DNA of 64,000 nucleotides, from the NCBI RefSeq assembly GCF_036365525.1, contig NC_090404.1, positions 6,510,001 to 6,574,000 of the forward strand. The letters run 5' to 3'. The stretch comes from Heterodontus francisci. Its lineage: Eukaryota. Shown one piece after another: positions 61,688 through 63,541 of the stretch. How positions within the stretch are numbered: the stretch's first letter is position 1; each line of letters begins with the position of its first letter. The position numbers and the translations under genes were made by a program. The notes beneath the pieces were generated by a model that worked only from the letters and a program-made list of their open reading frames with translations, did not search any database and had not been told where the DNA came from.

Positions 61688-61704
61688 AGCGCCATCTGGT
61701 GGTC
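61688..61704 (-). promoter_or_regulatory. CTCF motif upstream of V1
   Basis: Minus strand GACCACCAGATGGCGCT, a close match to the core CCACCAGRKGGCGC. Confidence 0.75.
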
Positions 61705-62024: not shown

Positions 62025-62502
62025 ATGAAGCTGAGGTTCACTTTAGTTATTATCTCCCTGGATTTCTTACTCGGCCCTCCGTGTGAGTGTGGTCACTATC
62101 TCTGTTTGTCAGGAATATTTTACACATTTATATATTATATTATATTCTGTTCTGTTGTATTTTATTGCGTTATGTTACATTGTGTTCTATTATATGAATT
62201 ATATAATATATTTCCATATTTTTTCTCAGATGCCACTGGCAGTGAAGAGGTATCACAGTCTCCTGAGTCAATGGTTGTTATCGAGGGAGACTCTGCATCG
62301 TTGACCTGTTCCACCACAGTAGCAGGACAGATCCTACAATGGTACAGACAATACCGGGACCGAACCGTGCAGCACCTGGCGAGCGGTACCAGTGATCAGA
62401 ACAGGATCACGGCTCGGTTCATTGCAGCAGAGAAGCGCAGCACTCTGACTGTGAGCGACACTCGAATGACAGACACTGCCACCTATTTCTGTGCGATGGA
62501 GA
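62025..62502 (+). CDS. T-cell receptor alpha/delta-type V gene segment (V1), germline
   Basis: Leader exon 62025-62082, phase-1 intron GTGAGT..TCTCAG at 62083-62229, V exon 62230-62502. It encodes VSQSP..ASLTC..QWYRQ..STLTV..DTATYFCAME and is followed by a 23-RSS. The alpha/delta assignment is by resemblance only. Confidence 0.9.
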
Positions 62503-62541
62503 CACAGTGTAGCAAAGATCAGTGGGGACCATACAAAAACC
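62503..62541 (+). other. Recombination signal sequence, 23-bp spacer
   Basis: CACAGTG (62503-09), 23 nt, ACAAAAACC (62533-41); perfect consensus. Confidence 0.97.
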
Positions 62542-62805
62542 TGCCGGGGCTGGTCCTGACCCTGCGTCGCCTGTGCAGTTAACAGAGCGCTGTCAGTTAT
62601 ATAACACTCCTTATTTTCCGTCGAGCTCCAAGATAGTTACTGAGGCGGTGTAACTCGGGGCATGGAGATGAGTCTCAAGATTTCCTAGACTTAACAACAG
62701 TTTGAATTGAAACCTGACAGTGTTTGTTCTCCGTGGATCTGACATCAAACTAACCCTGCCGATAAAGGTACCAACCAGCACTTAACGGAGCTGTAAAATC
62801 GCGGA

Positions 62806-62844
62806 GGTTTTTGTACGGGGTCTTGGCTTTTATCTGACGCTGTG
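62806..62844 (-). other. Recombination signal sequence, 23-bp spacer
   Basis: Minus strand CACAGCG (62844-38), 23 nt, ACAAAAACC (62814-06). Confidence 0.95.
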
Positions 62845-63339
62845 CCTCACTGCACAGTAATAGAGCGCCCCGTCCTCCACACTCAGGCCGCTTATATTGA
62901 GGTAACCGTACTTTTTCGACTTATCAGCAGCCGCCAAATATCGTCCTGAGATTTCGTTTCCCTGAAGTGCTACTACTTTCCTAATAATCCAGGTTGGAGG
63001 CTGTGCAGGTTCCTGCCGATACCATTGCATGTAGTCAATATCCGGGTTTGTATATTTGCAATCTAACTGCACCGAGCTCCCTCCTGACACGGTTATTGTC
63101 ACCGGAGACTGAGTTACTGGATCTGCACATAGTCCGCCTGAAAAGATAGAGGAACAAAGAACAGGAGGTTAAATAGGATTGATCTAATCTTCTATTTATC
63201 TGTGTGAGTGTATGTGACCTCCCATCTACCCAGCCAATTAAATTAAATCCTCCTACTTTGCATCAAACTGCTAACCTGCTTTGATTAACCTAATCCAATA
63301 CTTACTGTCCAACACAACAGCCAGTATTATGAGAAACAT
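62845..63339 (-). CDS. T-cell receptor alpha/delta-type V gene segment (V2), germline
   Basis: Leader exon 63339-63306 (MFLIILAVVLD), phase-1 intron GTAAGT..TTTCAG at 63305-63138, V exon 63137-62845. It encodes DPVTQSP..VQLDC..QWYRQ..GRY..LNISGLSVEDGALYYCAVR. Confidence 0.92.
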
Positions 63340-63541
63340 GTCTGACTAAATCCCTCGCAGTGAATTGGAATGGAATGAGCCAGATATTGAGAAGGGGTGA
63401 GAGGTAACTCGGGGACTGTGCAGCTCATCGTTCCACCCACACACTGCAGGGGGCGGCCCCATTGTGACCTCACTCAGCCTGCGATCCCTATTGGCCTTGG
63501 CGCTGGCATCACATGACTTCGCAATTACCATGTTTGAACTT

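What the first reader, a model, noticed from the sequence alone, without database searches (positions are those of the whole stretch)
62025..63339. Tail-to-tail pair of intact TCR V segments with facing 23-RSSs
Seen: two divergent, open V genes on opposite strands whose nonamers are only 264 bp apart, with no D segment or 12-RSS between them. Known: the 12/23 rule prevents them joining each other, so if both use the same J cluster one must rearrange by inversion. Mammalian TRAV arrays are almost all co-oriented. Inference: the locus may be built from compact inverted V doublets using both deletional and inversional joining.
Basis: partly seen in the sequence, partly recalled or inferred. Interest (0 to 1): 0.7.

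Follow-up and report, generated by a model that had tools for sequence, protein, structure and literature searches.

The report
Facing shark T-cell receptor V pair
Two intact, spliced shark T-cell-receptor gene segments face each other 3.3 million bases from their joining partners, so one would join by deleting and the other by flipping the DNA between, a mixed-direction layout already tabulated for other sharks and likely spread here by duplication rather than built as a special module.

Summary
Two open TCR alpha/delta V genes lie tail-to-tail, both spliced in an RNA-like run, with 23-RSSs 264 bp apart and no 12-RSS between. The locus is a shark one. Ninety J-alpha and C-alpha lie 3.3 Mb away on the minus strand, so V2 is in deletional and V1 in inversional orientation. 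About half the array is inverted: 79 of 104 plus-strand and 80 of 110 minus-strand V hits look intact. The doublet recurs 12 times (4 fully intact), so it is not a misassembly. The 'compact module' idea is weak: the gap is the eroded remnant of a third, dead V (about 300-760 bp in the copies measured), and tandem pair types (13) outnumber facing types (7). Inversional joining was not seen directly: both V-J junctions recovered came from deletional-orientation paralogs (2 of 2). Published supplementary tables already list expressed TRAV on both strands in bamboo shark and bichir, and facing pairs in bamboo and great white shark. The scan had earlier noted another tail-to-tail pair (e1-9829699) and the inverted second delta unit (e1-9964271) in this genome. 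The pair is real and useful as a test case, but mostly ordinary for sharks.

The parts
61689..61702 (-). CTCF-like motif upstream of V1 (consensus recalled; binding untested)
   Evidence: conserved in 5 of 7 paralogous doublets aligned, absent or cut in the other 2
62025..62082 (+). V1 leader exon
   Evidence: splice 62082>62230 GT..AG in run X5
62230..62502 (+). V1 TCR alpha/delta V exon, open, Cys23/Trp41/Cys104 present; inversional orientation to J-alpha and D-delta1
   Evidence: most top single-domain PDB hits are TCR alpha chains; J map
62503..62541 (+). V1 23-RSS, consensus
   Evidence: the only X1 DNA contig over 62541 reads A there instead of C, possibly the other allele
62624..62689 (+). 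66-bp relic of a third, decayed V gene whose leader, intron and exon survive in longer-gap paralogs
   Evidence: the L002 gap matches V genes elsewhere at about 66-75% over about 390 bp, tblastn E 8e-7; the window piece is 80% identical to it
62806..62844 (-). V2 23-RSS (heptamer CACAGCG, consensus nonamer)
   Evidence: same heptamer in all 10 intact V2-family members listed
62845..63137 (-). V2 TCR alpha/delta V exon, open; deletional orientation to J-alpha and D-delta1
   Evidence: a family member is joined to J-alpha in run X6
63306..63339 (-). V2 leader exon
   Evidence: splice across the intron in run X5
63443..63456 (+). CTCF-like motif upstream of V2 (consensus recalled; binding untested)
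   Evidence: the 20-bp stretch is 85-100% identical in 7 of 7 paralogs

Best explanation
These are two intact, spliced TCR alpha/delta V segments of different families in a 10-Mb shark V array of mixed orientation; V2 would join the shared D-delta1/J-alpha elements 3.2-3.3 Mb away by deletion and V1 would likely join the same elements by inversion, and the pair is likely a by-product of an old local inversion, segmental duplication and loss of a third V between them. Shown: the anatomy, the splicing, the position and strand of J, D and C, 12 copies of the pair, the relic V in the gap, and J-alpha joins by both families. Inferred from the 12/23 rule and geometry: the two RSSs cannot join each other; using V2 deletes V1; using V1 leaves a chromosomal signal joint with V2 still beside it; V2 could also reach the inverted second D-delta by inversion, whereas a V1 join to that D would put the coding joint on an excised circle. 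Inferred from mouse work: using both orientations over megabases would need an Igk-like, diffusion-type capture rather than purely linear RAG scanning.
For: J/C map: 90 J-alpha (minus, C34:3.190-3.272 Mb), C-alpha TM exon (minus, 3.184 Mb), 17 J-delta and D-delta1 (minus), a second D, 7 J and C-delta (plus, 3.443-3.462 Mb); V array at 3.51-13.9 Mb. No second J-alpha/C-alpha was found; the C1869 hit is a 100% identical duplicate over 20 kb. Plus-strand V genes are kept as well as minus-strand ones: 79 of 104 against 80 of 110 are open, full-length and have an RSS within 3 mismatches; mean RSS mismatches are 1.30 against 1.40. Framework pN/pS is 0.43 among the three plus-strand V1 copies and 0.45-0.49 overall. 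In 4 of 12 copies both members are intact, and one member of any facing pair is inverted whatever the scaffold orientation. V1 and the plus-strand paralog in L005 are transcribed. The bamboo-shark table lists 'F, transcribed functional' TRAV on both strands (8 plus and 12 minus of the 53 rows before TRAJ_001) and a facing F/F pair 1.08 kb apart; bichir has 20 F TRAV opposite to TRAC and 27 with it (PMC10322711 supplement).
Against: No inversional junction and no signal joint was observed. The two V-J-alpha junctions in run X6 match minus-strand paralogs (L001 V1, 3 of 3 diagnostic letters; L011 V2, the only one of 10 paralogs fitting all criteria), which is deletional orientation; n = 2, contigs only, one sample. 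Neither junction comes from the window's own genes. Orientation can change by later inversions, so pN/pS does not prove selection while inverted. The bamboo-shark table also lists minus-strand J behind TRAC, uses concatenated scaffolds and allows 5 mismatches in V mapping, which weakens it as proof. The V census is a lower bound from three capped searches (150 rows each).
Confidence: 0.7

Rival explanations
1. Tail-to-tail doublets are selected modules: a pair offers one V in each orientation, so whichever way an earlier inversion has flipped the block, one member is always available for deletional secondary (editing) joins.
For: Facing pairs outnumber back-to-back pairs (25 against 4 within 3 kb; 7 against 2 pair types); 14 of 25 facing pairs pass the automated intactness test for both members; facing pairs are also tabulated in great white and bamboo shark; a CTCF-like motif flanks both outer ends.
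Against: 12 of 25 pairs are copies of one ancestral pair; tandem types (13) outnumber facing types (7); leaders and promoters bias short exon-to-exon gaps toward facing pairs; 8 of the 12 copies have lost one or both members; solo V1 and V2 copies stay intact; the gap ranges from 264 to 764 bp and is a decayed V; V1 and V2 have different nearest paralogs (L001/L008 against L009), so the pair does not evolve as a unit.
Confidence: 0.12
2. Only deletional-orientation V genes are captured efficiently (linear RAG scanning); plus-strand V genes such as V1 are rarely used, or become usable only after a rare inversion.
For: 2 of 2 junctions recovered are from minus-strand paralogs. Among V1/V2 doublets with one dead member, the dead one is on the plus strand in 3 of 3. 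Mouse Igh scanning uses only convergent RSSs (PMC11153149 abstract).
Against: Across all facing pairs the dead member is plus in 4 and minus in 2; intactness and RSS quality are equal on both strands; both strands are labelled expressed in bamboo shark and bichir; salmon uses TRAV of both blocks at comparable frequency (PMC8559430 passages).
Confidence: 0.11
3. V1 avoids a long inversion by joining, deletionally, a 12-RSS of an IgM minicluster D or of a NAR-TCR cassette embedded in the array.
For: IgM constant exons lie on both strands throughout 3.6-13.8 Mb, the nearest listed plus-strand one beyond V1 at C34:7.009 Mb; IgH-TCR-delta trans-rearrangement is known in sharks (PMC12227049 section 6). 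The RSS spacing of IgM D segments is recalled, not tested.
Against: The only V1-family junction seen goes to J-alpha; shark IgH rearrangement is described as usually within a cluster; no such product was seen.
Confidence: 0.05
4. The facing arrangement is a local misassembly.
For: No single laid contig spans the whole pair, and the DNA runs may be the assembly's own sample.
Against: DNA run X1 covers 30 of 30 bins, with overlapping contigs 62467-62736 and 62708-62833 across the gap; 11 other copies of the same junction exist at roughly 78-90% identity, two of them flipped.
Confidence: 0.02

Closest known systems
Elasmobranch antigen-receptor complex / TCR alpha-delta locus (PMC12227049: passages, section 6 and Table S1 read whole; PMC10322711: passages and parts 1-2 of the TRA locus table)
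   Same: Order IgH-like C cluster - C-alpha - J-alpha - C-delta - IgH-like V - megabase V array interleaved with IgM; TRAV on both strands; facing pairs listed (great white LOC121270143 plus / LOC121270144 minus, 828 bp apart; bamboo shark TRAV39_3 plus F / TRAV49_2 minus F, 1,080 bp apart).
   Different: In the main text of PMC12227049 and PMC10322711 the word 'orientation' does not occur, so the layout is tabulated but not discussed there. Here the array is about 10 Mb, the pair is 264 bp apart nonamer to nonamer and is amplified 12-fold, and there is a second, inverted D-J-C-delta unit. Whether the published pairs are orthologs of this pair was not testable.
Teleost and bichir TRA/TRD with inverted V blocks (PMC8559430 passages; PMC10322711 table)
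   Same: V segments opposite to J-C are expressed, implying inversional joining; both orientations are used in salmon and bichir.
   Different: There the orientation comes in large blocks; here the strand switches at 120 of 230 neighbouring V hits.
Mouse Igk locus (PMC11153149 and PMC13190342, abstracts only)
   Same: 23/12 V-J joining over 3 Mb with V in deletional and inversional orientation; near-consensus V RSSs; secondary joins possible.
   Different: A different receptor, with V clusters rather than kilobase-scale alternation; no Cer/Sis-type platform was looked for here; many J-alpha RSSs are far from consensus (0-5 mismatches); the mechanism is untested in sharks.
Single inverted V behind the constant gene in TCR beta and delta loci (mentioned in PMC12227049; names TRBV30 and TRDV3 recalled)
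   Same: Inversional V joining at TCR loci.
   Different: One V downstream of C, against about half of a large upstream array here.

Membership tests
Functional TCR alpha/delta V segment | Split leader, GT-AG intron, open V exon with Cys23/Trp41/Cys104 | tested here: met
   both splices seen in run X5
Functional TCR alpha/delta V segment | 3' RSS with 23-bp spacer | tested here: met
   0 and 1 mismatches to consensus
Functional TCR alpha/delta V segment | In cis with D-J-C-delta and J-alpha-C-alpha | tested here: met
   The TM exons score as TCR delta/alpha constant in PDB but do not by themselves separate alpha from delta; alpha was assigned from 90 J without D, delta from the D with 12/23 RSS
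Functional TCR alpha/delta V segment | Found rearranged to J-alpha or D-J-delta | tested here: inconclusive
   Met for both families (in-frame joins to J-alpha at C34:3255772 and 3236320), not shown for the window's own two genes
Inversionally rearranging V segment | V opposite in strand to J/C, on the side the J-RSS faces | tested here: met
   V1 plus; J-alpha, D-delta1 and C minus, with 12-RSSs facing the array
Inversionally rearranging V segment | Coding joint from the inverted gene and retained chromosomal signal joint | tested here: inconclusive
   0 of 2 junctions from an inverted V; no signal joint among the joints listed; contigs only, loose-end lists truncated
Igk-type diffusion-mediated locus | CTCF platform near J and orientation-independent primary capture | not testable with these tools
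   Needs chromatin and repertoire data. CTCF-like motifs upstream of V occur in both orientations: 13 sense and 7 antisense among 112 V at 1 mismatch, shuffles about 0.3 each
Conserved doublet module | Constant spacing and co-evolution of the two members | tested here: not met
   Gap 264-764 bp with a decayed V inside; discordant nearest paralogs; intact solo members exist
Elasmobranch antigen-receptor complex | TCR alpha/delta V interleaved with IgM clusters | tested here: met
   17 of 20 C1 loci fetched are near-identical IgH CH exons between 3.6 and 13.8 Mb on both strands; the IgM label is recalled from the sequence and agrees with PMC12227049

The most novel reading that the evidence does not exclude
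Shark TCR alpha/delta assembly is orientation-blind across 10 Mb, an Igk-like diffusion mode that would be the ancestral one, and facing V pairs are kept by selection because after any inversion or editing round one member is deletional. Pairs 264-600 bp apart would then be natural internal controls that separate orientation from position.
Probability: 0.15. Interest if true: 0.65.

Novelty: new member of a known kind. Interest (0 to 1): 0.35.

Why it matters
If V1 and V2 are used at similar rates, RAG captures V segments of both orientations across more than 3 Mb in the oldest jawed-vertebrate lineage, which bears on whether linear scanning or diffusion is ancestral. Four intact pairs give the same position and chromatin with opposite orientation, two polarities included, so the test is unusually clean. 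As a structure, however, mixed-strand TRAV is already in published tables for sharks, and this pair's compactness is a local accident.

Tried and rejected
Pfam PF09291 (TCR alpha constant) found nothing in the genome or the controls, so it is uninformative. A genome-wide 12-RSS pattern gave 370 matches against 371 in the reversed control, and the listing stopped before C34. A near-length protein search with V1 found no relatives; the representative-library search returned mostly multi-domain gene models without names. PDB hits for V2 were antibody fragments and did not classify it. No RNA holder is on record: X5-X7 are guessed RNA, X5 is treated as RNA because it has splice joints and no intron depth, and X7 and X12 laid nothing. 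Contigs from X5 can be chimeric between paralogs, so read-through of the RSSs is noted but not assigned to a gene. My early impression that the inverted member dies first (3 of 3 V1/V2 pairs) did not hold over all facing pairs (4 against 2). Stronger RSSs on inverted V: not seen. A shared CTCF-like site in the 200 bp behind the RSS: 0 of 112 at 1 mismatch. C1869 as a second alpha locus: rejected as an identical duplicate. Look-alike stretches in other genomes: none indexed. Deiss 2019 and Ott 2021 were not held and may describe orientation in nurse shark. Nine paper searches ran; none listed a paper on facing TRAV pairs in sharks, but subscription papers are not covered. Most supplements of PMC10322711 were not read.

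Full report
Observation. The two genes are as described. V1 lies on the plus strand (leader 62025-62082, exon 62230-62502) with a consensus 23-RSS at 62503-62541. V2 lies on the minus strand (leader 63339-63306, exon 63137-62845) with CACAGCG-23-ACAAAAACC at 62844-62806. The nonamers are 264 bp apart and both spliced frames are open. The exact RSS pattern was found in 0 of 100 shuffles, and no 12-RSS lies between. The two V domains share 28 of 93 residues; both are V-set. They are the only V genes in the 64-kb window, which otherwise holds LINE-like and C2H2 zinc-finger ORFs. Run X5 has the predicted leader-to-V splice for each gene and no depth in the two fully intronic bins; DNA run X1 covers all 30 bins, with overlapping contigs across the gap. 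X1 may be the assembly's own sample.

Context. The window is C34:6.51-6.574 Mb of a 6-Gb genome. The closest named homologs are from sharks and rays. Three capped protein searches gave 231 distinct V hits between 3.5 and 13.9 Mb, 121 plus and 110 minus, with a strand switch at 120 of 230 neighbours. This census is a lower bound. IgH constant exons of one type (IgM by recall) are interleaved on both strands. Using the constant region of a sawshark protein and 400 kb of contiguous sequence, I mapped: C-alpha TM exon at 3.184 Mb (minus), 90 J-alpha at 3.190-3.272 (minus), C-delta1 at 3.302-3.304 (minus), 17 J-delta and one D with 12/23 RSSs (minus), IgH-like V segments pointing outward on both strands, then a mirror-image D, 7 J and C-delta2 (plus, 3.443-3.462; C exons 219 of 283 nt identical). 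No other C-alpha was found apart from an identical duplicate contig. V2 is therefore deletional and V1 inversional toward J-alpha (3.30 Mb) and D-delta1 (3.23 Mb). By geometry, the second D is reachable productively only by minus-strand array V genes, and by inversion.

Does the doublet repeat? Yes: there are 12 V1/V2-type facing pairs, 10 in this polarity and 2 flipped. Four have both members intact (6.572, 6.610, 8.897, 11.244 Mb); the automated test called a fifth, but its V1 has lost Cys104 and a base. Intact solo copies exist (one V1, three V2), and one further V2 faces a V of a different family. Heptamers and nonamers are 88-100% conserved across 7 paralogs, against 63-87% for the gap. 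Six other facing pair types occur within 3 kb, but 13 tandem types and 2 back-to-back types do too, and short exon gaps favour facing pairs because leaders and promoters lie outside. Of 231 hits I had sequence for 214; the 17 left out were plus-strand copies from a stop-bearing family and a tandem array, which affects the plus-strand fraction in both directions.

Why so compact? In paralogs the gap is 518-764 bp (about 300 in one) and contains the leader, intron and frameshifted exon of a third V, on the V1 strand, about 66-75% identical to V genes elsewhere in the array. The window retains 66 bp of it after deletions of about 280 and 40 bp. Solo V2 copies carry the same relic, so the older unit is likely relic-V facing V2, with V1 as the upstream neighbour. 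V1 is closest to the copies at 6.611 and 5.985 Mb (97%, 96%), V2 to the solo copy at 5.525 Mb (93%), so the members do not travel as a fixed unit.

Are inverted V genes used? The indirect evidence says yes. 79 of 104 plus and 80 of 110 minus hits are open, full-length and have an RSS within 3 mismatches. A stricter RSS-anchored finder gave 52 of 56 and 60 of 70, with equal RSS quality. Framework pN/pS is 0.43-0.63 for V1 and 0.29-0.52 for V2 groupings (pairs not independent, no significance test). V1-type and L005-type plus-strand transcripts are present. Direct evidence is missing. Run X6 gave two in-frame V-J-alpha junctions: one carries the three letters diagnostic of the minus-strand V1 at 6.611 Mb, the other fits only the minus-strand V2 at 10.137 Mb among 10 paralogs. 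Both are deletional. Two of two is what equal use would give one time in four, so it neither supports nor refutes inversion, but it is the only direct evidence and it does not favour my reading. A perfect-match V1 contig in X6 stops at 62498 without a loose end, which cannot be interpreted.

Known systems. PMC12227049 (passages, section 6, Table S1 whole) describes TCR alpha/delta V between IgH clusters, and its table gives both strands in great white shark, stingray and epaulette shark, with a facing pair 828 bp apart in great white. PMC10322711 (passages; TRA table parts 1-2; legend) labels TRAV on both strands as transcribed in bamboo shark, including a facing pair, and in bichir; caveats are concatenated scaffolds, minus-strand J behind TRAC and 5-nt mapping tolerance. 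PMC8559430 (passages) states inversional TRAV joining for teleosts and comparable use of both salmon blocks. PMC11153149 and PMC13190342 (abstracts) give the mouse mechanism: Igh scanning uses convergent RSSs only, Igk uses both orientations by diffusion, and secondary joins mostly scan in deletional orientation. PMC5931798 (passages, one supplement part) and PMC12529555 (passages) added nothing on shark V orientation. Deiss 2019 and Ott 2021 could not be read.

Verdict. It is, however, an instance of a layout already tabulated for sharks, and the doublet is more likely a duplicated accident than a building block. Its value is as an internal control for orientation effects on RAG capture. Interest 0.35.

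Noticed in passing
G000:C34:3,296,000-3,466,000 (L057-L074): Two D-J-C-delta units in mirror image (inverted repeats about 78-89% identical), with IgH-like V segments between them pointing outward; both C exons and TM exons are open. Found independently here; the scan had noted it before (e1-9964271).
   Followed up: partly
window 61689-61702 (-) and 63443-63456 (+): CTCF-like motifs flank the pair on its outer sides and point away from it. Such motifs are enriched upstream of V genes in the array in both gene-relative orientations.
   Followed up: partly
window 62372-62896: Run X5 has contigs reading through both RSSs and the gap without intron cover, suggesting spliced germline transcripts that could overlap convergently; contigs give no strand.
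   Followed up: no
window 62033-62230: A second splice from within the V1 leader gives an out-of-frame product.
   Followed up: partly
window 62541: X1 and X5 contigs read A instead of C at the last nonamer base of the V1 RSS: a likely allele or an assembly difference.
   Followed up: no
G000:C34:8,685,000-8,724,000 (L016, L136, L137): Tandem array of 16 plus-strand V hits at a 2.56-kb period; the unit inspected and its family have an atypical RSS (CACACTG, apparent 24-bp spacer).
   Followed up: no
G000:C34:9,327,877-9,329,670 (L147): Facing pair made of two members of the same V family, both intact: a local inverted duplication.
   Followed up: no
G000:C1869:12001-32000 (L203, L204): 20 kb that is 100% identical to the C-alpha/J-alpha end of C34, likely a false duplicate contig.
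   Followed up: yes
window 26586 (+) and 53920 (+); 23394, 39926, 44140: Long C2H2 zinc-finger-like ORFs and LINE-like ORFs fill the V-free part of the window and would be deleted or inverted by joins of these V genes (labels from sequence appearance).
   Followed up: no
L125, L126, L120 (C34:8.399, 8.433, 7.931 Mb): Open V genes with consensus RSS that lack Cys23.
   Followed up: no
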